From a virus (Duplodnaviria; Heunggongvirae; Uroviricota; Caudoviricetes), in the IMG/VR virus record IMGVR_UViG_3300045988_148039: a stretch of 49,193 bases of DNA, one strand, 5' to 3'. The notes beneath the pieces are model-generated. The model saw only the letters and a program-made list of their open reading frames with translations. It did no database searches and was not told the origin of the DNA. The position numbers and the translations under genes are program-made. Below, one piece after another: positions 619-45,703 of the stretch (within the stretch, counting starts at the first letter, position 1; the number at the start of each line of letters is the position of its first letter).

Positions 619-2185
619 CATCTGTCTCCATATTTTGTTCATTTACCTCAGAAACAGGAGGCGTAATCAGCCCTAATTCACGGCGAGCACTCTCCTCCCT
701 GCCACAAATTTGTGCGGTTTCTTCCCAGTTAAGACCTGACATTTCAGCCGCTTCTTTTTCACGGGTAGAGAATGTTTCTTCAACACGCAGTTTTGCAGCT
801 TTGACTTCTTTAAGGGGATCTAATTGACCTTGTGATGGGCCATACCATTGAGCGCCACTCCATGCAGCGCGATATTCTGGCCCATAAAAAAAACCAGGGG
901 CAATAACACGACCTTTAGCAACAGCTTCAGCCAACCATTCCTCATAGATCGGTTGGCAAAATGACTGAACCATCCAGTCACGTCGCATACGGAACATTTT
1001 CCAGGCTTCAAGTAATGCGGCCCTGCTTGCGCTATAACTTGCTGTAAAATGCTTTACCAAGAGTTCGTAAGGGAGTTCTAAAGCAGCCCCAATTTGACGG
1101 CATATGGCGACAACAAAACCATCAAATGCCGTATTTGGTCGCCCGGGATTTGCTGTATCTATCGACTCACCTTCCCCCAAACTTACTATGGAGCCATTCC
1201 CCATTTCTTGGGTGTTATCATCATGGTTATCGATCTGCTCGTACTGAGGGATACCTGATTCACCTACTGGTCCATCAGGAGCGTCTGTTTTAATAAAAAC
1301 TGTAAACATCCCTGACACAACCGCAGCAACCAATTCAGCATCGGTGTATCGTCCTAACTGCTTCAATGCTTCAATTACAGGAGCAAGGACAGGAACGCCA
1401 CGGCGTTGCCCAGGCCTTTCAAAATCCTGCATAACATGCAGAATATTTCTTCTTCCTGTTTTACTCCCATATGCGGGAATACGTTCCCACTTGCGGGTTA
1501 CAAAACCAGAAGTCCCGGCTGGGTGATGTTTTGCAACCCAGTACGCCACAGGCTCGCTAAATTCACCAACCTCTACGCCACCGTAAAGATTTGGTATAAA
1601 ACGATCCTCTGGATTGCAAACACGATCACCTTCAATTAAATAGACGCACAAATCATATATAACACCCTTACGCTTAATAACTGGTAGCGCAGCAAATATA
1701 TCGCCAGATGTTAACGCAGATATTTGGACCAATGATTGCAATTGTCCAAAAGTACACATTCTTGATGCATCACAATTTGGAGAATCAGCCCATAATCTAA
1801 ACTCACGCTCAACATGCTTTTCCCATGCTCGCGCTTCTTCCTGCGTCATCCCCAAGAAATCGGCATCAATGTTCGCATTTAGTTTTAAACCGGAACCAAC
1901 AACGTTTGTCCTGATAGTTTTTATTGCGCCAACCGATAGCGGGTTTCCCATGAAGAGATCACGAGAACGCTCACGCAATTTATCTATATTTTTAACAATA
2001 TCATCATCAGGAGAACCAGCTTTACTAAACCAACCCCTTAATGATTTTTTATGAGTGCTTGCACCATGACGTGAATATCCAAGGTTATTAATACTTTCAA
2101 GTGCTTCTAACCGTTTTCTTGCCAAAGCTCGATTTAATGCCCTCTGAGGTGAAAACGGTGCAATAACTCGATCAAGAATATTCAT
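611..2185 (-). CDS. Portal protein (lambda gpB family)
   Basis: 524-aa ORF between gpW-like and protease genes; sequence resemblance to lambda B recalled from memory. Confidence 0.8.
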   Translation of the reverse strand: MNILDRVIAPFSPQRALNRALARKRLEALESINNLGYSRHGASTHKKSLRGWFSKAGSPDDDIVKNIDKLRERSRDLFMGNPLSVGAIKTIRTNVVGSGLKLNANIDADFLGMTQEEARAWEKHVEREFRLWADSPNCDASRMCTFGQLQSLVQISALTSGDIFAALPVIKRKGVIYDLCVYLIEGDRVCNPEDRFIPNLYGGVEVGEFSEPVAYWVAKHHPAGTSGFVTRKWERIPAYGSKTGRRNILHVMQDFERPGQRRGVPVLAPVIEALKQLGRYTDAELVAAVVSGMFTVFIKTDAPDGPVGESGIPQYEQIDNHDDNTQEMGNGSIVSLGEGESIDTANPGRPNTAFDGFVVAICRQIGAALELPYELLVKHFTASYSASRAALLEAWKMFRMRRDWMVQSFCQPIYEEWLAEAVAKGRVIAPGFFYGPEYRAAWSGAQWYGPSQGQLDPLKEVKAAKLRVEETFSTREKEAAEMSGLNWEETAQICGREESARRELGLITPPVSEVNEQNMETDDA

Positions 2186-2432: not shown

Positions 2433-4289
2433 CTATATGGTTACGCCTTTACTTATAACTCTACGGCGTCTTCTACGTATACCTGACGAGTTCTGCACAT
2501 ACACATTACCTCGCATTTCCTGTTCAGCAAGCCAGTCAAAATTAGGGTTCAGAATTTCCATCGCGGCAGTTGCATAGTTACGGCAATCAAGAGGCTCGTT
2601 ACGCTCGTAGACTTTCACCCACTTTTCTTTTGTCTGCCCATTTTTATATTCAAATATTTTTTTCTCTGATAATAGCCCTTTAAAATAATCAGTATCATAT
2701 CCTCTGTCAGAATCTAATGGAAAATGCATATAACCAGGACCAGGATCATGTAGCTTAATTCGTGCCATGATGGTCCCTTTACCATCATCAACCCCCAAAT
2801 TAAACAACATAGCGCCTACACGGTTATTATTGCTTGGCTTTCCTATAAACGGTAAACCTACCCCACCACGACCTCTGATAGAATATATTCGCCTTGATTC
2901 TCGCGGCTTAGTAAAGCGATATACCTCTGTCGTAAAATGCCCACCAGAGTCAATACAAACGGAAGAAATCTGTAATTTTCGACCGTCACGAAATGACCAG
3001 CTACGGAGTAAGTATTCATCAAGTTGTTTCCAGACAACATCTTGTGCGGGATCGCCCGGAAATATTTTATATTCAATCCCCCATGATTCCTTACCTTTTC
3101 CCCAACCGACCAATTCACAAACTAAATACGTGTCCTGTACGTCAACACCAGCACTTAACAATAAAACATCATCTGGTAAAAACTCTTCAAACCTTATTCT
3201 GCGTTGCAACAAGTATTCAGGATCGATATCGTCTTTAGCATCCTCTTTCCATGGCTCACCCAGCTTAAGGTTAATAAACTCCATTAATCCATTTTTATCG
3301 CGGTTTCTGGTTGCTTCCGTAAATTCTTCAACCAGCTCTGACAATGCAACCCACGGGGAGTAAAGACTGTTAATATGAAAACCAACAATACCTTTAACTC
3401 CAGTATGTTCAGCTATCCATACCCCCTTCGCCAACCAATCAACGTCTGGTTTACCAGATCCGCGCATAATCCCGCCGCACTCACAGCACTCATATCTGGC
3501 CGTTTCCGGTAACGCCTCACCTGAATCGCTCTTATCCCATCTGACTTGCGACCATTTCATCACCTGCATGGTGCCACAACATGGGCAAGGAACATGGTAG
3601 TAACGCTGATCGGAGAGCTTAAACCACTTGTGGATTTTGCTCGTTTCCTCCAAAACAGGAGTAGAAACAAAAACTTTCTTACGATTATGAAAGTTGGTAG
3701 TACGCTGAATACCTAGTTTTAGTGGGTCGCCCTCCTGCGTCACACCGTAACGATCAATCTCATCAGCTAACAGTATTCGAATTGGCCTGGATGCAAGACC
3801 TGCTGGGGAATTAGCACCAACAAGTGCTATATATCCACCAGCGTAATGCTTCATACGTATAGTCGTGCTGGACTTTTTGGCTGCACCGCGCCCCTCTTTC
3901 CCTTCATGCAGCTTGTGTTTCAAACCAGGGGAATATTTGAACGTCGGATCAATACGCTCTTTTGAAAAAGCCTCAGCCGCCTCTACCGTTGGATAAATCA
4001 TCAACTGAGGAGATGGCTCCTGATCTGCAAAGTAACCCATAACATTTAGCTGTAATTCGGATTTACCAATTTGCGAGCTACATTGCATCACTACTGTTTC
4101 TGTATCAGCGTCACCAATAACATCCATTGGTTCACGCAAATATGGCACTCGGCTTGTACGCCACGGCCCTGGCTCTGGAGACGTTCCCGGCGCTACATGA
4201 CGATACTTATCAGCCCATTCGGAAACAGTTAGCCGTGATTTAGGGCGAAGCGCACGGAAAAAAGCGGTGCTCCATACTGTTTCGCCCAT
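2433..4289 (-). CDS. Terminase large subunit (lambda gpA-like)
   Basis: 618-aa ORF; N-terminal ...VSEWADKY... and overall layout resemble lambda A; followed by W-like and portal genes. Confidence 0.85.
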   Translation of the reverse strand: MGETVWSTAFFRALRPKSRLTVSEWADKYRHVAPGTSPEPGPWRTSRVPYLREPMDVIGDADTETVVMQCSSQIGKSELQLNVMGYFADQEPSPQLMIYPTVEAAEAFSKERIDPTFKYSPGLKHKLHEGKEGRGAAKKSSTTIRMKHYAGGYIALVGANSPAGLASRPIRILLADEIDRYGVTQEGDPLKLGIQRTTNFHNRKKVFVSTPVLEETSKIHKWFKLSDQRYYHVPCPCCGTMQVMKWSQVRWDKSDSGEALPETARYECCECGGIMRGSGKPDVDWLAKGVWIAEHTGVKGIVGFHINSLYSPWVALSELVEEFTEATRNRDKNGLMEFINLKLGEPWKEDAKDDIDPEYLLQRRIRFEEFLPDDVLLLSAGVDVQDTYLVCELVGWGKGKESWGIEYKIFPGDPAQDVVWKQLDEYLLRSWSFRDGRKLQISSVCIDSGGHFTTEVYRFTKPRESRRIYSIRGRGGVGLPFIGKPSNNNRVGAMLFNLGVDDGKGTIMARIKLHDPGPGYMHFPLDSDRGYDTDYFKGLLSEKKIFEYKNGQTKEKWVKVYERNEPLDCRNYATAAMEILNPNFDWLAEQEMRGNVYVQNSSGIRRRRRRVISKGVTI

Positions 4290-12065: not shown

Positions 12066-12141
12066 TGGTGGCCCCTACCGGATTTGAACCGATGACCGTG
12101 CGATTATGAGTCGCCTGCTCTAACCACTAAGCTAAGGGGCC
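12066..12141 (-). tRNA. tRNA, anticodon CAT (Met, or lysidine-modified minor Ile2 given resemblance to E. coli ileX as I recall it)
   Basis: Reverse complement folds as a cloverleaf: 7-bp acceptor stem GGCCCCT/AGGGGCC, T-arm with TTCAAAT loop, anticodon loop CTCATAA, encoded 3' CCA. Confidence 0.8.
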
Positions 12142-31067: not shown

Positions 31068-31622
31068 TCAATGATTCCCAGCCGGAAACCTGCGGTAAAG
31101 CGTGGATAAGGTAACATCGAAGATAATCGCTATCTGCTTACGTGAAACACCATTCGCAATAAGCCTTCCGATCTGTTCCCATTGCTCTGGTGCCAATTTT
31201 GAGCGGCGTCCTCCTATCCTGCCGTTAGCCCTTGCCACCGCCAATCCTGCACGCGTTCTTTCAATCATATTTTCCCGCTCCATCTCTGCGACTGCACTCA
31301 GCATCGTGTAGGCAAAGCGGCCAATTGAAGTGCTAATTTTTATCCCTTCCGTAATCGAAATAAACTCAATGTTGTTTGATAAAAAATAATTAAGTAAATC
31401 AACAAGATGAATCAGAGAGCGCCCCATTCGGTCCAGCTTCCAGACAATAACCGTATCGCCCGGCCGTAACACCTTCAGTAGCTTATCAAGTCCTGGTCGT
31501 TTTGATTTAGCACCGGATATTTTATCTTCAAAAATCCGGTCACATCCTGAACTCCTGAGCGCCTCCAGTTGTAATTCCAAATTCTGGTCAAAAGTTGACA
31601 CCCTCGCATAACCATATTGCAT
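31068..31622 (-). CDS. Serine recombinase, Gin/Hin/Pin/Cin-family DNA invertase
   Basis: 184 aa; MQYGYARVSTFDQNLELQ, VWKLDRMGRS and C-terminal HTH closely parallel Gin as I recall it. Confidence 0.9.
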   Translation of the reverse strand: MQYGYARVSTFDQNLELQLEALRSSGCDRIFEDKISGAKSKRPGLDKLLKVLRPGDTVIVWKLDRMGRSLIHLVDLLNYFLSNNIEFISITEGIKISTSIGRFAYTMLSAVAEMERENMIERTRAGLAVARANGRIGGRRSKLAPEQWEQIGRLIANGVSRKQIAIIFDVTLSTLYRRFPAGNH

Positions 31623-31693
31623 ACTTTCTAAACCGCGATTGTTGCTAAAAGCGGGAAAAAATATCGTTCAGACGACACAGAGGCAATTCGCAA

Positions 31694-31720: not shown

Positions 31721-32720
31721 CAGGGCTGGTAACGCCGTGCAAAAAAATGGCGATACTTTGTCCGGTGGGCTTACTTTTGAAAATGACTCAATCCTTGCCT
31801 GGATTCGAAATACTGACTGGGCGAAGATTGGATTTAAAAATGATGCCGATGGTGACACTGATTCATACATGTGGTTTGAAACAGGCGACAACGGCAATGA
31901 ATATTTCAAATGGAGAAGCAAACAAAGCACCACAACAAAAGACCTGATGAATCTTAAATGGGATGCTTTGTCTGTTCTTGTTAAAGCCCTTTTCAGCAGT
32001 GAAGTAAAAATATCGACAGTCAATGCACTGAGGATATTTAATTCATCTTTTGGTGCCATTTTTCGCCGTTCTGAAGAATGCCTGCATATCATCCCTACAC
32101 GAGAGAACGAGGGAGAAAATGGTGATATAGGGCCACTACGCCCCTTTACGCTTAATCTTAGAACTGGTCGGATAAGCATGGGGCATGGTCTTGATGTTAC
32201 AGGGGATATATTTGCAAACCGTTTTGCAATTAACAGTAGTACCGGCATGTGGATTCATATGCGTGACCAGAATGTTATTTTGGGACGCAATGCGGTATCC
32301 ACCGATGGTGCGCAGGCATTACTTCGTCAGGACCATGCTGATCGCAAATTTATGATTGGTGGGCTGGGAAATAAGCAATTTGGCATCTACATGATTAATA
32401 ACTCAAGGACAGCCAATGGCACCGATGGTCAGGCGTACATGGATAATAACGGGAACTGGCTTTGCGGTGCGCAAGTTATTCCCGGCAACTATGGCAATTT
32501 TGATTCCAGATATGTGAAAGATGTTCGACTTGGTTCACAGCAATATTATGGAGTGAACAACTGGCAAACATGGAATTTCCAGTGCCCGTCAGGTCATGTA
32601 TTGTCTGGTATTAATGTTCAGGATACAGGGTCCAACTCTGCCGATAATATAGCGGGCGTTTATTACAGACCCGTTCAAAAGTATATAAATGGCACCTGGT
32701 ATAATGTAGCGAGCGTTTAA
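31694..32720 (+). CDS. Alternative tail-fiber C-terminal segment (no own start; fused to the constant part after inversion)
   Basis: Frame open upstream to the crossover site with no start codon; C-terminus ...[11 protein letters not shown] matches the current fiber's ...INGTWYNAGSI. Confidence 0.7.
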
Positions 32721-40263: not shown

Positions 40264-40471
40264 TATTGCGTCTCCACGGAGGCAAATTGTTTACTGATAT
40301 TGGCATAACCGGAGCATCAGGAACTTTAAGAATAATTCCCGCAGAAAAAAGCACCGTAAAGCGGTGCTCAGTATTAGCATCAATAAGAAGATAAGACAGG
40401 TACTCATTACCATACAACTTTAACGCGATGCTATCCCATGAGTCCCCTTGAACCGTTCTATAATCATCCAA
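40253..40471 (-). CDS. Tail protein X-like (LysM-like)
   Basis: 72 aa; QGDSWDSIALKLYG...ILKVPD parallels P2 X as recalled. Confidence 0.55.
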   Translation of the reverse strand: MDDYRTVQGDSWDSIALKLYGNEYLSYLLIDANTEHRFTVLFSAGIILKVPDAPVMPISVNNLPPWRRNSVT

Positions 40472-43256
40472 AACTTAATCTCCGTTGTTGGAACATATGA
40501 GCACTCAATTTCTTCTCAAAATCAGAATATCCCGCATCTAATGCTCTTTTAGCTGCCGCCTCAGTTTCCTTTGGTGAGCCAGCCGGAAGATTGATTACAG
40601 GCGAATAGGTTATCCCACCAGTCACTGCGTTAACGTTCTGGCGAGGTCCAGAACTCCCGGCAGCAGAGATCCCGTGAGGTGATAAATTTGATTGCCCGAA
40701 CTGGGTTGCGATTGCATTCTGTAAGCTGTTATTTCTGCTAACACCAGATGCCAGAGTAGTCATTATTGCCCCACCTGACTTTGTTAGCTGTGAGAATGGA
40801 CCTTTTTTCGCATCAGAGAACGGCAAATACTCACGTACAGAAGAAAAAACGCCTTTTACTTCATTGATTAAAGCATTTGCTTTTGATTTTATCCCTGTGA
40901 TTAACGTCTCAATTATTTTTGCACCTGACTCTCTCCAGTTTATTCCAGACAAATAAGCTGTTACAGATTGAAATGCTCTTATAAAGAGTCCAACTGGTGA
41001 AAAACGCATAAAAACAGATACCAGCGTATCTATGATTTTCTTTCCTGTTTCGCTCCAGTTAATGCCAGAAAGGTAATTTGTTGTAAGTTTAAACGCTTTA
41101 ATTAATAACGGAAGCGGAGACATCCATTTAAAAGCACTAATTAATGTATTGTAAATTCTTACTCCTGCCGAACTCCAGTTTATATTGGAAAGATAATTCC
41201 ATGCTTTACCAAACATGGATATAATCCATCCATTGAGATCAAAGTTTAAGATAAAGTTTTTTATAGCCTCAAAAGACTTAACAGTGTACTCCTTAATAGC
41301 AGGCCAAACTTTTGATGCACATTCTTTTATTTTATCCCAATTCTGATACAACAATATCCCCAACGCCACAATGGCTGATATGGCCATCTGAATCCAACCG
41401 AAAGGGGTTAGCTTTGTCGCTACAGATAAAGCCAACATAGCTACCCTACACGCTATAACCACACTTTTCATGGTTAGAAACGCACCTGCCGTCATCACAA
41501 TCTGAGACACAAAATTGGGGTTGTTAGCTACAAATTCACTGATTTTTGTAATTAGCGGAACCAGAACACTAAGCGCGGCATTTAAAGCAGGTTGCAAGGC
41601 CTGACCAAAACTTAATGATGCATTGCTAGCCTGAATACGTAATTGTTTCAATCGCTCCGCATTATCTTTCGTTATGTTGGCAAAATCGCGGTCAATAACA
41701 GCACTTCCAGCACCAAGAGATGTTGCTTTGATTCTCTGGTATTCCTTCCAGTTTTGAATCATCGGACGAACAAAGTTCTGAACCTGCATATCGCCAAATA
41801 GTTCACCAAGTAACTTCTGATCTCCGTTCTTAGTCATTTTCATGACAGAATGCATTGCAGCTTCGAATGGATTCTTCCCTTTTTTCTGCGCTGTTGTGAC
41901 AATTTTATATAAATCTACACCGAAATTTTTCTTTGCTTTTTTCAGGGTTTCAGGGGAAAGTATTTTCGCCAAAAAGTTGTTCATATTATTAGCAGCTTCA
42001 TCCGAAGTTGCGGAACCCTTGCGAGCTATCTGCAAAGCTGCCCCCATCGTCGCGGCGGCTTCTTTACCTCCCATTTTTAATGCCTGGAACTGAGCACCAA
42101 GCACAGGAAGATTTTTGGCCATATCTTTAAATTCAAAGTTTCCCTCTTTCCCTGCCTGAACCAGAATCCCCATTGCAGACTTCATTTGAGATGGATCAAT
42201 CTTCAATGAGTCACTTAATGTAAATGATGCTTTCGATACATCGAGGATATCAGAGCCAGTAGCTGTAGCTGTTCGCCCAATAGTCAGCAGATTCGCCTGA
42301 GCCTCTTTATAATCCTGCCCCGCAGCGACCAGAAACCCCTGAGCGGCCTGAATATCAGATGCAAACTGGTTGGTAGCCGCCCCGGTAACAAGCATCGCCT
42401 GCCCCATCGCCTGAACTTCCTCCGGCTTCATATCTGCCGTAAGACCAATCATTTTGTTTTCACGATTAAAATTTGCTGCATTATTAGCAGCAGCAAATGC
42501 ACCAGCCGCTACAGCACCAGTTTGTAATCCTGACCTTACAAGTTGACTCTTTGCCTCACCAAGATGCTCTCGCTTCAATTCACGTTGCCTTTCCAACGCG
42601 CGGTTTAACTCCTCCTGAGCACGTTTTACTGCAAGAACATTTTTCCGTGCTTCAGCCAACGCATTTTTATAGCTGTTAATTTTATCAATACGTTGTTTTT
42701 CTAATGCCCGGTTAAGTTCCTCCTGCTGTTTTTTCACTTGCTGAACATTTGCTCTGGCTAAAGCCAAAGCCGTTCTGTAGCGGTTAACCTGCTCAACGCT
42801 ACGGACCTGAGCCTCACGATTACGATCAATGCTGGCTTTAAGCTCTTTCTCTCTTGAGGCCAAAGCTCTGGCAGATGTATCAGCTCCCTGATAGGCAGAC
42901 TTTAAAGCGGCCAGTTCTTCACGCTGAGAACGTAGTGATGCTCGTAAATTCGATGAATGTGTTTTTGCCTTCTCAAAGTCACGAAGCATCGCTCTGGTTG
43001 GATTGGCCGTGTTTTTTATTTGCTTCTGTAACTCTTCAACGCGAGCGGCAGCTTTATGATATTCGAGGGCAGTCTGTCCAACCTTTACTTTTACAGATTG
43101 TAGCTTTTGAATTTCCCCATGTTCTTTCGTTAATCCAGCAAGCTCGGCATTTAATTTAGCAACAGCCTGATTAGCTGCAGTAAAACTTTTGGGGAGAGAG
43201 GCGGCAACTTTGCCGCCAATTTCAAAAGCCAGCTTAAAGTTCTTATTGCTGGCCAT
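40464..43256 (-). CDS. Tail tape measure protein
   Basis: 930 aa, coiled-coil-rich with internal tandem repeats (...EELNRALE(K/R)QR...), between chaperone and baseplate genes. Confidence 0.85.
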   Translation of the reverse strand: MASNKNFKLAFEIGGKVAASLPKSFTAANQAVAKLNAELAGLTKEHGEIQKLQSVKVKVGQTALEYHKAAARVEELQKQIKNTANPTRAMLRDFEKAKTHSSNLRASLRSQREELAALKSAYQGADTSARALASREKELKASIDRNREAQVRSVEQVNRYRTALALARANVQQVKKQQEELNRALEKQRIDKINSYKNALAEARKNVLAVKRAQEELNRALERQRELKREHLGEAKSQLVRSGLQTGAVAAGAFAAANNAANFNRENKMIGLTADMKPEEVQAMGQAMLVTGAATNQFASDIQAAQGFLVAAGQDYKEAQANLLTIGRTATATGSDILDVSKASFTLSDSLKIDPSQMKSAMGILVQAGKEGNFEFKDMAKNLPVLGAQFQALKMGGKEAAATMGAALQIARKGSATSDEAANNMNNFLAKILSPETLKKAKKNFGVDLYKIVTTAQKKGKNPFEAAMHSVMKMTKNGDQKLLGELFGDMQVQNFVRPMIQNWKEYQRIKATSLGAGSAVIDRDFANITKDNAERLKQLRIQASNASLSFGQALQPALNAALSVLVPLITKISEFVANNPNFVSQIVMTAGAFLTMKSVVIACRVAMLALSVATKLTPFGWIQMAISAIVALGILLYQNWDKIKECASKVWPAIKEYTVKSFEAIKNFILNFDLNGWIISMFGKAWNYLSNINWSSAGVRIYNTLISAFKWMSPLPLLIKAFKLTTNYLSGINWSETGKKIIDTLVSVFMRFSPVGLFIRAFQSVTAYLSGINWRESGAKIIETLITGIKSKANALINEVKGVFSSVREYLPFSDAKKGPFSQLTKSGGAIMTTLASGVSRNNSLQNAIATQFGQSNLSPHGISAAGSSGPRQNVNAVTGGITYSPVINLPAGSPKETEAAAKRALDAGYSDFEKKLSAHMFQQRRLSFG

Positions 43257-43261
43257 TAGTA

Positions 43262-43444
43262 TTAATCCTCATTAAACACATCAATCCATGCGACGATTCG
43301 CCTCAACCGAAGCGAAAGCCAGTAGGATATAGGTGTTGATTGAGATGATTGAGATAGAGAACTCGCGGCCCTCATTATTTGCTTATCAATAGGTTTTTGC
43401 TCATCAAAACCTACGAGAGCAAAAAATTCTGTACCTTTTGACAA
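43262..43444 (-). other. Minus-1 frame extension of the tail assembly chaperone (frameshift product)
   Basis: No ATG start; opens at the slippery site and runs to the stop at 43262. Confidence 0.45.
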
Positions 43445-43692
43445 ACTTTAACAAAGTCTTTCGCTGGCAATCCATTCAGATACTCTATTGGACGACCAAT
43501 ACAGCGAGCAGCCAAGGCTGCATGGACTTTATTATCAAGTGATGTTTGAACTGAAACATACCCTTGAGATTGCAGTAAGTCCGATACCTCTAAAATATCA
43601 CTGCCTTTTAGGTTGTCTAAATCAAGGTTGAGTTCAGTCACCGGCTCAAAGTCTTCAAAACGATATTCTTTACTTAATTTAACGGTTTCCAT
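43411..43692 (-). CDS. Tail assembly chaperone (gpE-like)
   Basis: 93-aa ORF between tube and tape measure genes; ends just after T TTT TTG. Confidence 0.55.
   Translation of the reverse strand: METVKLSKEYRFEDFEPVTELNLDLDNLKGSDILEVSDLLQSQGYVSVQTSLDNKVHAALAARCIGRPIEYLNGLPAKDFVKVCQKVQNFLLS
43420..43426 (-). other. Candidate -1 slippery heptamer T TTT TTG
   Basis: Read directly; in-frame position near the 3' end of the chaperone ORF. Confidence 0.45.
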
Positions 43693-43701
43693 TTTGTCAC
43701 C

Positions 43702-44223
43702 TTATAAACCTAAATCATCACGAACGCTTTTTAATATATCTTCACCATCAAAGATACAAATAAAGTTCAACTTATCAATTTCCAGGACTTCTTTTCCATC
43801 AATAAATAATTTGATATAGAGAACTTCAAATTCATTCTCTGAATCAGTAGCCTTTGCCACCTGTAGCGAACCTAAATCCAGTTTTTTAGGGTTTAGCTTC
43901 ATTGAAGCCCGAATAGGAACCGTTTTATATTTTCCTGTTCCTGCATCATAAACCTGCTGGCTACCGCGAAAATCTACCTGATGAGATGAGGATAGAAATA
44001 ATTTTGTACCAGCAGAGGTCAGAGTTCGCCATTTAAGAGAGACAGTCATTGGTTTGAAATGCCCCAGCGTTCCGCTCTCAAGCTCTCCAGCGATACCTGC
44101 ACCACTAACAGTTTCTGTCATCATCTCAATTGATGGCAGCTTTGCGTCAGCAACACCGATAATACGGTTTCCCTCACCGTATACTGTAAAGTTAATAAGT
44201 CTCTCAGGAATTTGATTGCTCAA
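43702..44223 (-). CDS. Tail tube protein
   Basis: 173-aa ORF immediately downstream of the sheath gene. Confidence 0.7.
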   Translation of the reverse strand: MSNQIPERLINFTVYGEGNRIIGVADAKLPSIEMMTETVSGAGIAGELESGTLGHFKPMTVSLKWRTLTSAGTKLFLSSSHQVDFRGSQQVYDAGTGKYKTVPIRASMKLNPKKLDLGSLQVAKATDSENEFEVLYIKLFIDGKEVLEIDKLNFICIFDGEDILKSVRDDLGL

Positions 44224-44239
44224 AGCAACCTCCTATTAT

Positions 44240-45703
44240 TTATTCAGAAAACAAGTTCAGCAGATAATCAGGATTATATTCCATGACGAACTCTATATCT
44301 CTGGCAGGTGAGAACGGTGTCATTTTTACATGGAATTTAACAATCCCGTCCATTAATGACGTAATCGTGTTTTCTGACTGATCAAAGGTAACAACACCAC
44401 CTGCAATATCCTGATTACCTGTGAGGCCGTTAAGCCAAATATTCGCACTTGTAACAATCGATTCAATTAATCGACGGTTTGCAGGATTGTCTATTTTTGA
44501 CCAATGCGAAAGAATTAACGTATTACCCACCCAGTTAAACATACGTCGGCAAACACGAAATGCGTCTTTGGGGTCTGTAGATGTTGGATAAATAGCATTA
44601 CGGTTTCCCCATGATTTCCAACCATCAAAATTAAGGCTTGTTACAATCCCCTGTCCATTTAAGTAGTTTGCCTGGCTAATGTTAAGCCATACTTCACTGC
44701 CATCTTTACGTACAGCACCGTCCATCTGTAGTTTTATATTTGACGGAGAACGTGATGGAATATCACCATACTGACTATCCAGCAAGCATGTTGCGGCCGC
44801 TAAATGGGTTGAGTGATGGTAAATATTGTCACCAAGTTTCACCATCGGCCAGCACACTGTCTGGTTAGCGGCCATGTGATTATTGTTCTGTTTCCATTCA
44901 GGAACAGCCGAGTAATCACTGATAGTAGATTTATCGGTCGGCGCATCCGTTATAGCTTCTGCTTTGAACAATTCACTAATCAGCGCGGCTTTAGCCGCCA
45001 TTAGCTGACCAACTTCACTATCAGAACTAAATCCAGGTGCAATCACTTGTCCAGGAACTAACTTGAAGCGGGGATACACATCTGACAGTAACTCAAGCCC
45101 TGTATTGGCTTTAGTGTTGGAATCCACACCACCGATAATGTCATTTTTAGTTACGGCACCGGGATCAAGATGCGTATAACTAACCTTAAGAGTAGCGTCT
45201 TTTTCGGTAATTTTTCCTCCGCTAATAGCTGTAATGACCGTATAGCCATTATCATCCAGCGCCAGCACATAATCGGTATCAACCGTTAACCCAGGTGAAT
45301 CACCATCTGCTTTTTTCACAACAACAGATTTATATAAGACACCATCGTTAGAGAGCGTACCTTTCCCGCCAGAAAGTTTTACTAACTCATCAGTAACGTC
45401 TTTCTTATGCTTTGCTGGATCAAGCACATTGATAAATACAACTGGCGCAACACCATATATTCCAAATGCGACTTTAATTACTTCGCTTAAAGTATATTTC
45501 TCGAAGTTTGTGCTATATCCTATTTTAGATACGGCCTCTGCGTATGTATAAGCAATGATAGGTTTATTTACCGCTGAGGCTGGATCTTCTAACTGATTAA
45601 CAGGAGCCGTACCAAATGCGACAATCAACCCAGCACTAACTTGCACTGGAGGAGTTATAGATGTAGCCAGCTCAGATATATAAATACCGTGGCGATATCC
45701 CAT
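44240..45703 (-). CDS. Tail sheath protein
   Basis: 487 aa; N-terminus MGYRHGIYISE resembles the conserved start of P2 FI-type sheaths. Confidence 0.8.
   Translation of the reverse strand: MGYRHGIYISELATSITPPVQVSAGLIVAFGTAPVNQLEDPASAVNKPIIAYTYAEAVSKIGYSTNFEKYTLSEVIKVAFGIYGVAPVVFINVLDPAKHKKDVTDELVKLSGGKGTLSNDGVLYKSVVVKKADGDSPGLTVDTDYVLALDDNGYTVITAISGGKITEKDATLKVSYTHLDPGAVTKNDIIGGVDSNTKANTGLELLSDVYPRFKLVPGQVIAPGFSSDSEVGQLMAAKAALISELFKAEAITDAPTDKSTISDYSAVPEWKQNNNHMAANQTVCWPMVKLGDNIYHHSTHLAAATCLLDSQYGDIPSRSPSNIKLQMDGAVRKDGSEVWLNISQANYLNGQGIVTSLNFDGWKSWGNRNAIYPTSTDPKDAFRVCRRMFNWVGNTLILSHWSKIDNPANRRLIESIVTSANIWLNGLTGNQDIAGGVVTFDQSENTITSLMDGIVKFHVKMTPFSPARDIEFVMEYNPDYLLNLFSE

What the first reader, a model, noticed from the sequence alone, without database searches (positions are those of the whole stretch)
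43262..43692. Candidate -1 programmed frameshift in the tail assembly chaperone
The chaperone ORF ends shortly after T TTT TTG, and the overlapping -1 frame has no start codon but continues for about 55 codons to just before the tape measure gene. This matches the conserved two-product chaperone arrangement of tailed phages.
Basis: partly seen in the sequence, partly recalled or inferred. Interest (0 to 1): 0.4.

Follow-up and report, generated by a model that had tools for sequence, protein, structure and literature searches.

The report
Tail chaperone -1 frameshift site
This is the ordinary, widely conserved ribosomal frameshift that lets a tailed phage make a short and a long tail-assembly chaperone from one gene; it is real here, uses the same slippery sequence as phage P2, and is simply missing from the public annotations of this phage-plasmid family.

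Summary
All the genes lie on the minus strand. A 93-codon chaperone ORF (43692..43411) sits between the tail tube gene and the tape measure gene. It contains an in-phase U UUU UUG heptamer (43426..43420) two codons before its UAG stop. From that heptamer the -1 frame stays open for 52 codons, to a TAA at 43264..43262, five bases before the tape measure ATG (43256).

One genome alone proves little: the heptamer occurs 19 times in the window against about 23 expected. The comparative evidence is decisive:
- Every intact relative examined (26-99% identity) has T TTT TTN in the same phase.
- Each also has a 52-63 codon -1 extension ending next to the tape measure start.
- The extension peptides align, sharing TP.xYWL..L.EL..W.
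- dN/dS in the -1 frame is 0.09-0.23.
- Most relatives have no possible start codon for the extension.

Phage P2 E/E+E' uses the same TTTTTTG, gives the same product sizes (91/142 aa against 93/143 aa) and has the same gene order. Homologous Vibrio phage X29 is already annotated with the joined CDS.

The verdict is a new, unannotated member of a well-known kind, of low interest. A modest hairpin 5 nt downstream may stimulate the shift, but this is not established.

The parts
43411..43692 (-). Zero-frame tail assembly chaperone ORF ('G'-like short product, 93 aa, ATG 43692, UAG 43413..43411). Its own Shine-Dalgarno sequence AAGGTGA lies at 43703..43697.
   Evidence: ORF and codon table. PF10109 Phage_TAC_7, 24.2 bits; phrog_3140 'tail assembly chaperone', E=3.7e-42. 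RefSeq names the identical gene 'phage tail assembly protein'.
43420..43426 (-). Slippery heptamer U UUU UUG in X XXY YYZ phase (codons AAU UUU UUG = N89 F90 L91).
   Evidence: It is conserved as T TTT TT(G/A/C) in phase in all 24 relatives analysed. The probability of spelling it from synonymous codon choice is 0.0004-0.23 per sequence, with a product of about 1e-28. P2 has the identical heptamer at its annotated shift site.
43262..43420 (-). The -1 frame extension ('T'-like domain): 52 codons from GCU (43420..43418) to GAU (43267..43265), then TAA 43264..43262. The predicted fusion product is 143 aa (91 + 52).
   Evidence: phrog_30074, E=1.7e-31. dN/dS 0.09-0.23; variable columns by codon position 28/16/43. 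Periodicity is already present in codons 1-15. The aligned motif is R.G(L/F)...TP.xYWL..L.EL..W.
43389..43414 (-). Candidate stimulatory hairpin: 9-bp stem GUAGGUUUU / AAAACCUAU with an 8-nt loop. It starts 5 nt after the heptamer, and its 5' arm contains the zero-frame UAG.
   Evidence: -9.1 kcal/mol, z=-4.5 for the chosen 28 nt, but only z=-0.95 to -1.5 for 86-90 nt stretches. It is kept in the relative L009 (95% aa identity), which has a change in the loop. Across the family, downstream structure is enriched but not universal. Function is inferred, not shown.
40464..43256 (-). Tape measure protein gene (930 aa). Its Shine-Dalgarno sequence GAGGA (43270..43266) lies inside the last codons of the extension.
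   Evidence: PF10145, E=9e-21; phrog_28, E=1.6e-108. Sequence read.
43702..44223 (-). Tail tube gene (173 aa), immediately upstream of the chaperone.
   Evidence: PF04985 Phage_tube (FII), E=3.5e-44.
44240..45703 (-). Tail sheath gene (487 aa).
   Evidence: phrog_23 tail sheath, E=7.9e-96. RefSeq annotates it as 'phage tail sheath family protein'.

Best explanation
This is a programmed -1 ribosomal frameshift of the lambda G/GT and P2 E/E+E' type, in the tail assembly chaperone gene of a contractile-tail phage-plasmid.

Proposed mechanism:
1. Ribosomes start at the chaperone ATG (43692). Most terminate at UAG (43413..43411), giving a 93-aa chaperone.
2. A minority slip back one base. This happens when tRNA-Phe on UUU is in the P site and tRNA-Leu on UUG is in the A site of U UUU UUG (43426..43420).
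3. After the slip, the tRNAs re-pair with UUU UUU, and decoding continues with GCU.
4. Translation runs on for 52 codons to TAA (43264..43262), giving a 143-aa fusion with the junction ...VQNFL|ALVGF....
5. A 9-bp hairpin 5 nt downstream may raise the shift frequency.

By analogy with lambda and P2, both products bind the tape measure protein. The extension then recruits the tube protein, so that the tail polymerises to the right length. A fixed short:long ratio is set by the shift efficiency.

What is shown here: the anatomy, homology, conservation, and coding selection on the -1 frame. What is inferred: the slip itself, its efficiency, the role of the hairpin, and the protein functions.
For: - Anatomy.
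- Gene identities and the order sheath-tube-chaperone-TMP.
- The fusion matches phrog_3140 across the junction, and the extension matches phrog_30074.
- 43 viral loci plus 6 contigs were fetched. Every intact relative analysed has an in-phase T TTT TTN 10-37 nt before the stop, and a 52-63 codon -1 extension ending between -26 and +31 nt from the TMP start.
- Synonymous sites spell the heptamer even in a GC-rich relative (L034) where P(TTT|Phe)=0.13 and P(TTR|Leu)=0.02.
- dN/dS in the -1 frame is 0.09-0.23, with third-position excess from the first codons after the heptamer.
- 17 of 22 relatives have no ATG, GTG or TTG in the -1 frame between the upstream stop and 12 nt past the heptamer.
- P2 has an annotated '-1 translational frameshift' at GGT TTT TTG, giving E 91 aa and E+E' 142 aa (PMC3091744).
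- X29 has a RefSeq joined CDS labelled 'lambda gpGT analog' at the same heptamer.
- Function of G/GT and the higher efficiency in P2: review PMC5009743.
Against: - There is no protein, ribosome-profiling or reporter evidence for this element or its close relatives.
- U UUU UUG alone is not rare in the window.
- The extension does not match Pfam PF06528 (P2 E'), and profile similarity to P2 E+E' is weak (E=0.03 and 0.011).
- The chaperone falls 0.8 bits short of the PF10109 gathering score.
- The downstream hairpin is weak and not conserved across the family.
- Sequence alone cannot separate ribosomal slippage from RNA polymerase slippage on the T6 run.
Confidence: 0.88

Rival explanations
1. 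Transcriptional slippage. RNA polymerase adds one extra U on the T6 run, and ordinary translation of that minority of mRNAs yields the long product. The junction would then read ...NFFALVGF... instead of ...NFLALVGF....
For: A homopolymeric T6 run is present and conserved. Sequence data cannot tell the two mechanisms apart. Polymerase slippage on A/T runs is known in bacteria (PMC5009743).
Against: The review describes efficient bacterial slippage on runs of 9 A or T, whereas the run here is exactly 6. It stays at 6 in all 24 relatives, because the seventh base is G, A or C, never T. The same TTTTTTG in P2 is recorded and cited as a translational frameshift (PMC3091744). Several relatives have strong hairpins at the spacing typical of ribosomal stimulators.
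Confidence: 0.06
2. The -1 ORF is a separate small gene. It would be translated from its own start, either TTG 43444 (60 aa) or the internal AUG at about 43375..43373 (37 aa), and no fusion protein is made.
For: the ORF listing reports a 60-aa TTG ORF at 43262..43444. A Met at extension residue 16 is conserved among the enterobacterial relatives. KLER1-1 annotators called a 41-aa ORF in the equivalent place.
Against: No Shine-Dalgarno-like sequence precedes the TTG, and 17 of 22 relatives have no start codon there at all. In X29, L033 and L046 the -1 frame opens only 3 nt before the heptamer. The Met is replaced by R or K in most distant relatives. Residues before it (R.G(L/F)) are conserved and show coding periodicity. 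The heptamer's synonymous conservation would be unexplained.
Confidence: 0.03
3. Nothing functional is here. The 154-nt stretch between the chaperone stop and the tape measure start is a non-coding spacer that happens to be open in one frame.
For: This is how all close relatives are annotated. In a single genome neither the heptamer nor the open frame is statistically unusual.
Against: dN/dS is 0.09-0.23 and third-position variation dominates in exactly the -1 frame. A peptide motif is conserved to 26% identity. The extension hits phrog_30074 at E=1.7e-31.
Confidence: 0.01

Closest known systems
Bacteriophage P2 genes E and E+E' (Christie et al. 2002, J Bacteriol 184:6522; annotated in NC_001895)
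   Same: - Identical heptamer T TTT TTG in the same phase.
[quoted passage not shown]
- Products of 91/142 aa in P2 against 93/143 aa here.
- Gene order sheath (FI), tube (FII), E, E', tape measure (T).
- The extension ends at the tape measure start.
- The N-terminal domain belongs to the same Pfam family, PF10109.
- Both extensions end in an L.EL..W motif.

   Different: - Sequence identity is too low for BLAST-level matching.
- The extension here is not a PF06528 (Phage_P2_GpE) member.
- P2 has 5 zero-frame codons after the heptamer before its stop; here there are 2.
- P2 has no downstream structure (z about -0.4; PMC3091744). Here there is a 9-bp hairpin 5 nt downstream.
- The rest of the element is a phage-plasmid, not a P2-like integrating prophage.
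Vibrio phage X29 tail assembly chaperone pair (NC_024369.2; YP_009043921.1 'lambda gpG analog' and YP_009091831.1 'lambda gpGT analog', joined CDS)
   Same: It is a true homologue: 45% identity over residues 1-91. It has the same AAT TTT TTG, a stop two codons later, and a 57-codon extension with TPIPYWMTMPLVEL. It sits in the same position between tube and tape measure. The frameshift is already annotated.
   Different: X29 has a much stronger downstream hairpin (-31 kcal/mol, z=-7.2). That hairpin shares the 5' arm UAGGUUU but uses a 3' arm about 30 nt further on. The host and the genome backbone also differ.
Bacteriophage lambda G / GT (Levin, Hendrix & Casjens 1993; Xu, Hendrix & Duda 2004, 2013, 2014)
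   Same: The logic is the same. There are two overlapping ORFs between the major tail gene and the tape measure gene. A -1 shift near the end of the first ORF gives a short:long ratio fixed by shift efficiency. Neither product is in the virion. The functional model is G binding the tape measure and T binding the tube protein (PMC5009743).
   Different: The slippery site differs (G GGA AAG in lambda, from my own knowledge). Lambda has a non-contractile tail. No sequence similarity was detected. Efficiency is about 1:30 in lambda and 2-3 fold higher in P2-type phages; it is unknown here.
Bacteriophage Mu gp41 (Mup41, PF10109)
   Same: It belongs to the same chaperone Pfam family and has the same position between tube (M) and tape measure (gp42). 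A peptide ...GPEWALSLPLSRFF..., resembling the YWLSLPL.EL motif, lies downstream of its stop (hhalign E=0.001).
   Different: In Mu that peptide is in the +1 (= -2) frame, not the -1 frame. Mu has no T6N heptamer, gp41 is longer (144 aa), and no frameshift product is annotated in the record.

Membership tests
G/GT-type tail assembly chaperone frameshift (Xu, Hendrix & Duda 2004 definition) | Two overlapping ORFs located between the major tail (tube) gene and the tape measure gene | tested here: met
   Tube 43702..44223, chaperone 43411..43692, -1 ORF to 43262, TMP from 43256, all on the minus strand.
G/GT-type tail assembly chaperone frameshift (Xu, Hendrix & Duda 2004 definition) | A slippery sequence in the correct phase within the overlap, allowing tRNA re-pairing in the new frame | tested here: met
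   U UUU UUG at 43426..43420 in X XXY YYZ phase. It is the only such in-phase heptamer in the last 120 nt of the ORF.
G/GT-type tail assembly chaperone frameshift (Xu, Hendrix & Duda 2004 definition) | The downstream ORF lacks its own initiation signals | tested here: met
   There is no ATG. The only candidate is a TTG with no SD-like sequence upstream. 17 of 22 relatives have no candidate start at all.
G/GT-type tail assembly chaperone frameshift (Xu, Hendrix & Duda 2004 definition) | The arrangement is conserved in relatives although the sequences have diverged | tested here: met
   All intact relatives from 26% to 99% identity keep the heptamer, its phase and the extension. dN/dS is 0.09-0.23.
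G/GT-type tail assembly chaperone frameshift (Xu, Hendrix & Duda 2004 definition) | Both the short and the frameshifted long protein are made, in a fixed ratio, and both are needed for tail assembly | not testable with these tools
   This needs mass spectrometry, reporter assays and genetics. No paper was found on the closest phages.
Pfam PF10109 Phage_TAC_7 (P2 E / Mu gp41 / gp14 chaperones) | Score at or above the curated gathering threshold (25 bits) against the family HMM | tested here: inconclusive
   The window protein scores 24.2 bits (E=3.4e-5) over profile positions 1-78 of 79, just below the cut-off. 14 of 18 relatives match at E<=0.01, with a best E of 1.3e-9. Cluster representatives at 95% identity carry a precomputed PF10109 hit. 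P2 E+E' scores 47.5 bits.
Pfam PF06528 Phage_P2_GpE (the E' extension of P2) | The extension peptide matches the family HMM | tested here: not met
   There is no hit even at E<=10 for the window, X29 or KLER1-1 extensions, while P2 E' scores 78.7 bits. hhalign of the extension profile against P2 E' covers only 14 columns at E=0.011.
PHROG phrog_3140 (tail assembly chaperone) and phrog_30074 | Significant HMM match | tested here: met
   Short product E=3.7e-42. Fusion E=1.2e-46, with the match running through the junction to residue 137. Extension alone against phrog_30074 E=1.7e-31.
dnaX/IS-type bacterial -1 frameshift cassette (SD stimulator + heptamer + 3' stem-loop) | An internal Shine-Dalgarno-like sequence 9-14 nt 5' of the shift site | tested here: not met
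   The only SD-like element is AAGGU, with 6-7 nt to the heptamer. That is shorter than the 9-14 nt stated in PMC5009743 section 36.
dnaX/IS-type bacterial -1 frameshift cassette (SD stimulator + heptamer + 3' stem-loop) | A stable stem-loop or pseudoknot 5-9 nt 3' of the heptamer | tested here: inconclusive
   There is a 9-bp, -9.1 kcal/mol hairpin with a 5-nt spacer. Its regional z-score is only -0.95 to -1.5. Across 19 lineages the enrichment has p=0.015, but many have no structure.

The most novel reading that the evidence does not exclude
The shift efficiency, and so the short:long chaperone ratio, may be tuned lineage by lineage through RNA elements laid over the coding sequence.

- A downstream hairpin may act as a stimulator. 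Its 5' arm (UAGGUUU, covering the zero-frame stop and the conserved -1 frame I/V-G-L/F codons) is fixed by protein constraints. Its 3' arm has been recruited independently at different distances: 8-nt loop here, about 45 nt of inserted helix in Vibrio phage X29.
- There is also a synonymous-site 'GG' 7 nt upstream of the heptamer. It is present in 19 of 24 relatives although the amino acid at that codon varies. It may act as an unusually close anti-SD-pairing or E-site-context stimulator.
Probability: 0.25. Interest if true: 0.3.

Novelty: new member of a known kind. Interest (0 to 1): 0.15.

Why it matters
The main value is for annotation. About 60-77 sequenced E. coli plasmids, three Yersinia phages and two Escherichia phages of this family list a 93-aa 'hypothetical' or 'tail assembly' protein followed by an unexplained 154-nt gap. 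That gap in fact encodes the C-terminal domain of a second, probably essential, tail assembly protein.

The site also adds a well-supported lineage to the set of PF10109 chaperones that use the P2-type U UUU UUG site. In this lineage the extension domain has no Pfam model. It changes no concept: the mechanism and its role in tail length determination have been known since 1993-2004.

Tried and rejected
- **Single-genome statistics.** The heptamer count (19 against 23 expected) and the length of -1 extensions past stops (38% of ORFs reach 149 nt or more because neighbouring genes overlap) are uninformative. They were dropped in favour of comparative tests.
- **Structure prediction.** The single-sequence AlphaFold model of the fusion has mean pLDDT 40.6, too poor for a fold search, so none was run.
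- **Database searches with no useful result.** There was no PDB relative by profile search (best E=0.44). NCBIfam gave no hit for either this protein or P2 E+E'. Rfam gave only a chance sub-threshold mir-2 hit.
- **Christie et al. 2002 (PMC135442).** The paper is not held. P2 facts are taken from the GenBank record and from PMC3091744 and PMC5009743.
- **pSLy3 guess.** My recollection that the element belongs to the 'pSLy3' phage-plasmid group was checked and dropped. pSLy3 is part of the SSU5 supergroup, and there is no evidence linking it to this element.
- **SD-type upstream stimulator.** It was considered, but the spacing does not fit.
- **Second candidate heptamer.** An in-phase TTTTTTC at 31661 (-) lies in a spurious antisense ORF.
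- **First hairpin test.** The first family-wide test, with 50-nt windows, was not significant (p=0.07). A redesigned test with 35, 55 and 80-nt windows gave p=0.015. Because of that redesign I treat the enrichment as suggestive only.

Full report
**1. The observation**

The region was read on both strands and translated in all frames. All the genes lie on the minus strand:
- Tail sheath: 45703..44240 (487 aa).
- Tail tube: 44223..43702 (173 aa).
- A 93-codon ORF: 43692..43411.
- The 930-aa tape measure gene, starting at 43256.

The 93-codon ORF ends ...CAG AAU UUU UUG CUC UCG UAG. The heptamer U UUU UUG (43426..43420) is therefore in the X XXY YYZ phase needed for tandem -1 slippage, and the stop follows two codons later.

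Re-reading the final G in the -1 frame gives GCU CUC GUA GGU.... This translates to ALVGFDEQKPIDKQIMRAASSLSQSSQSTPISYWLSLRLRRIVAWIDVFNED, which is 52 codons. It stops at TAA 43264..43262, 5 nt before the tape measure ATG. The tape measure's GAGGA ribosome-binding site (43270..43266) lies inside the last codons of the extension.

That TTG has no Shine-Dalgarno-like sequence before it.

**2. Is it more than chance?**

Within this one sequence it is not. TTTTTTG occurs 19 times in the window against 23.0 +/- 3.7 in shuffles. A -1 frame that stays open for 149 nt or more past a stop is seen for 38% of ORFs of at least 90 aa, because neighbouring genes overlap. The case has to rest on homology and conservation.

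**3. What the genes are**

- Tube: PF04985, E=3.5e-44.
- Tape measure: PF10145, E=9e-21; phrog_28, E=1.6e-108.
- Sheath: phrog_23, E=8e-96.
- The 93-aa ORF: phrog_3140 'tail assembly chaperone', E=3.7e-42. It also aligns end to end with Pfam PF10109 (Phage_TAC_7, 'E, or 41 or 14') at 24.2 bits, just under the 25-bit cut-off.

The conceptual 143-aa fusion matches phrog_3140 through the junction (residues 1-137, E=1.2e-46). The 52-aa extension alone matches phrog_30074 (E=1.7e-31). Both halves are therefore recognisable phage protein families.

**4. Relatives**

*Near-identical DNA (97-99.6%).* It occurs in Yersinia phages vB_YpM_39/41/44, in Escherichia phages vB_EcoM-613R2 and -473R2, and in 59 PLSDB plasmids. 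In complete E. coli genomes there are 77 places, all on plasmids of roughly 46-52 kb and none on a chromosome. None of these records annotates the extension. RefSeq calls the ORF 'phage tail assembly protein' and leaves a 154-nt gap.

*More distant relatives.* A pattern scan of IMG/VR returned 43 loci, and six contigs were fetched for database homologues at 69-77% identity. Every intact relative analysed, from 99% down to 26% identity, shows the same three features:
- T TTT TT(G/A/C) in the same phase, 10-37 nt before the zero-frame stop.
- A -1 extension of 52-63 codons.
- An extension stop lying between -26 and +31 nt from the tape measure start.

*Exceptions.* These are contig ends, disrupted copies and one rearranged copy. 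The rearranged copy, L010, has a truncated extension and no tape measure gene follows it.

**5. Tests of coding and of the heptamer**

(a) The extension peptides align across the whole set. The conserved positions are R.G(L/F) directly after the junction and TP.xYWL..(P)L.EL..W near the C-terminus.

(b) Between the window and seven enterobacterial relatives, dN/dS in the -1 frame is 0.09-0.23, comparable with the upstream chaperone domain (0.05-0.12 where dS was not saturated). Variable columns fall 28/16/43 on codon positions 1/2/3. The same periodicity holds for the first 15 codons after the heptamer (pairwise differences 120/81/194). Translation in this frame therefore begins at the heptamer, not at the internal AUG.

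(c) Given the encoded amino acids, I computed the chance that synonymous choices spell xxT TTT TT(G/A), using each locus's own codon usage. It is 0.0004-0.23 per sequence, and the product over 24 (not fully independent) sequences is about 1e-28. A GC-rich relative (L034), with P(TTT|Phe)=0.13 and P(TTR|Leu)=0.02, still has AAT TTT TTG.

(d) In 17 of 22 relatives the -1 frame has no ATG, GTG or TTG between its upstream stop and 12 nt past the heptamer. In three of them the frame opens only 3 nt before the heptamer. Independent initiation is therefore not a general option.

**6. Comparison with characterised systems**

*Phage P2.* The P2 record (NC_001895) annotates E (91 aa), E+E' (142 aa, joined CDS) and a 'site of -1 translational frameshift'. 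The sequence there is GGT TTT TTG, the same heptamer in the same phase, between tube gene FII and tape measure gene T. PMC3091744 describes this TTTTTTG site, its conservation in P2-like Burkholderia phages, and the absence of a downstream hairpin in P2.

*Lambda.* The review PMC5009743 summarises the lambda G/GT model. G and the G part of GT bind the tape measure, the T part recruits the tube protein, and the ratio is about 30:1. It also states that the efficiency in P2 and its relatives is 2-3 fold higher.

*Vibrio phage X29.* It is 45% identical to the window protein and carries a RefSeq joined CDS labelled 'lambda gpGT analog' at the same AAT TTT TTG. The length of that CDS equals my predicted fusion of 147 aa.

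*Differences.*
- The extension here does not match Pfam PF06528 (P2 GpE'), whereas P2's does at 78.7 bits.
- Profile comparison with P2 E+E' is weak, although it aligns the FL junction and the L.EL..W motif (E=0.03 and 0.011).
- A similar motif (GPEWALSLPLSRFF) lies after Mu gp41, but in the +1 frame.

**7. Possible stimulators**

*Downstream hairpin.* Five nucleotides after the heptamer there is a 9-bp hairpin (GUAGGUUUU, 8-nt loop, AAAACCUAU; 43414..43389). Its energy is -9.1 kcal/mol. The z-score is -4.5 for the selected 28 nt but only -0.95 to -1.5 for 86-90 nt stretches. It survives in L009, a relative with 95% aa identity that has a substitution in the loop.

X29 pairs the same 5' arm (UAGGUUU, which encodes the conserved I-G-L) with a 3' arm about 30 nt further downstream, giving a -31 kcal/mol structure (z=-7.2).

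Across 19 lineages, structure downstream of the heptamer is stronger than in control windows from the same loci (Mann-Whitney p=0.015; z<-3 in 32% against 9%, Fisher p=0.012). An earlier 50-nt version of the test gave p=0.07. P2 and many other relatives have no such structure. I therefore call the hairpin a plausible but unproven enhancer.

*Upstream GG.* The codon three positions before the heptamer codon ends in G in 19 of 24 relatives, against a background third-position G frequency of about 0.25, even though the amino acid varies. This creates a GG 7 nt upstream of the heptamer. That spacing is shorter than the 9-14 nt reported for Shine-Dalgarno stimulators of -1 shifting, so I leave it unexplained.

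*Other checks.* Rfam has no matching family, and no promoter or terminator signal separates the chaperone from the tape measure gene.

**8. Rival explanations**

- **RNA polymerase slippage on the T6 run.** Sequence cannot exclude it. However, the run is short, it is never extended to T7 in any relative, and the identical site in P2 is documented as translational (confidence about 0.06).
- **A separately initiated small gene.** The findings in 5(b) to 5(d) argue against it (about 0.03).
- **A non-coding spacer.** The findings in 5(a) and 5(b) and the PHROG match exclude it (about 0.01).

**9. Verdict**

It is a textbook G/GT-type (specifically P2 E/E+E'-type) -1 programmed frameshift, in the tail chaperone gene of an E. 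coli phage-plasmid with a contractile tail. It is not annotated in this family's public records, so it is a new member of a known kind and useful for annotation, but it would not surprise a specialist.

Four things were not shown here: the fusion protein, the shift efficiency, the role of the hairpin, and the binding partners.

Noticed in passing
window 31068..31622 (-) and 31737..32720 (+): A 184-aa serine recombinase / DNA invertase-like ORF (MQYGYARVSTFDQNLELQ...) lies next to a 327-aa tail-fibre-like ORF. That ORF is on the opposite strand to the rest of the tail module. This looks like an invertible host-range segment of the Mu Gin/G or P1 Cin/C type. The in-phase TTTTTTC heptamer at 31661 (-), flagged by my scan, sits in a spurious antisense ORF there and is a false positive.
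   Followed up: partly
whole window (49,193 bp): The element appears to be a phage-plasmid. Near-identical tail-module DNA was found at 77 places in 71 complete E. coli genomes, all on plasmids (roughly 46-52 kb where complete) and none on chromosomes. The same DNA occurs in 59 PLSDB plasmids, all typed non-mobilizable, and in Yersinia phages vB_YpM_39/41/44 (49 kb, circular). Partition genes are annotated in Escherichia phage vB_EcoM-613R2.
   Followed up: partly
window 12066..12141 (-): A tRNA-Met gene (anticodon CAT) is carried by the element. It is also annotated in the Yersinia phage relatives.
   Followed up: no
window 43437..43432 (-) (AAG GUA, 7 nt 5' of the heptamer) and the equivalent position in loci L003-L056: The third position of the codon three before the heptamer codon is G in 19 of 24 relatives (background about 0.25), although the amino acid varies (K, A, R, L, S, G, V). 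Together with the next codon (mostly GUN) it gives a conserved GG(U). It is SD-like, but its spacing is shorter than the 9-14 nt known for -1 stimulators.
   Followed up: partly
L003 (Vibrio phage X29) 2770..2835, compared with window 43414..43389 (-): Both use the 5' arm UAGGUUU (the zero-frame stop plus the conserved G-L/F codons of the -1 frame) for a hairpin just after the heptamer. They pair it with non-homologous 3' arms: an 8-nt loop here, and an inserted 10-bp helix with a -31 kcal/mol total in X29. This suggests the stimulatory structure arose repeatedly and independently.
   Followed up: partly
L049 (phage Mu, NC_000929) about 3990..4130: After the gp41 stop, the +1 frame encodes ...GPEWALSLPLSRFF.... 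This resembles the YWLSLPL.EL motif of the extension family studied here (hhalign E=0.001). No frameshift product is annotated in the Mu record.
   Followed up: partly
L010 (IMGVR_UViG_2824588292_000004) 1780..2100: This relative keeps the chaperone and the heptamer, but its extension stops after 16 codons and no tape measure gene follows. It is a rearranged or defective copy rather than a counter-example.
   Followed up: yes
database proteins P0014 and P0018: Two database 'homologues' of the chaperone (116 aa and 83 aa) switch into other reading frames midway. They are probably products of assembly indels in the source records, not alternative natural products.
   Followed up: no
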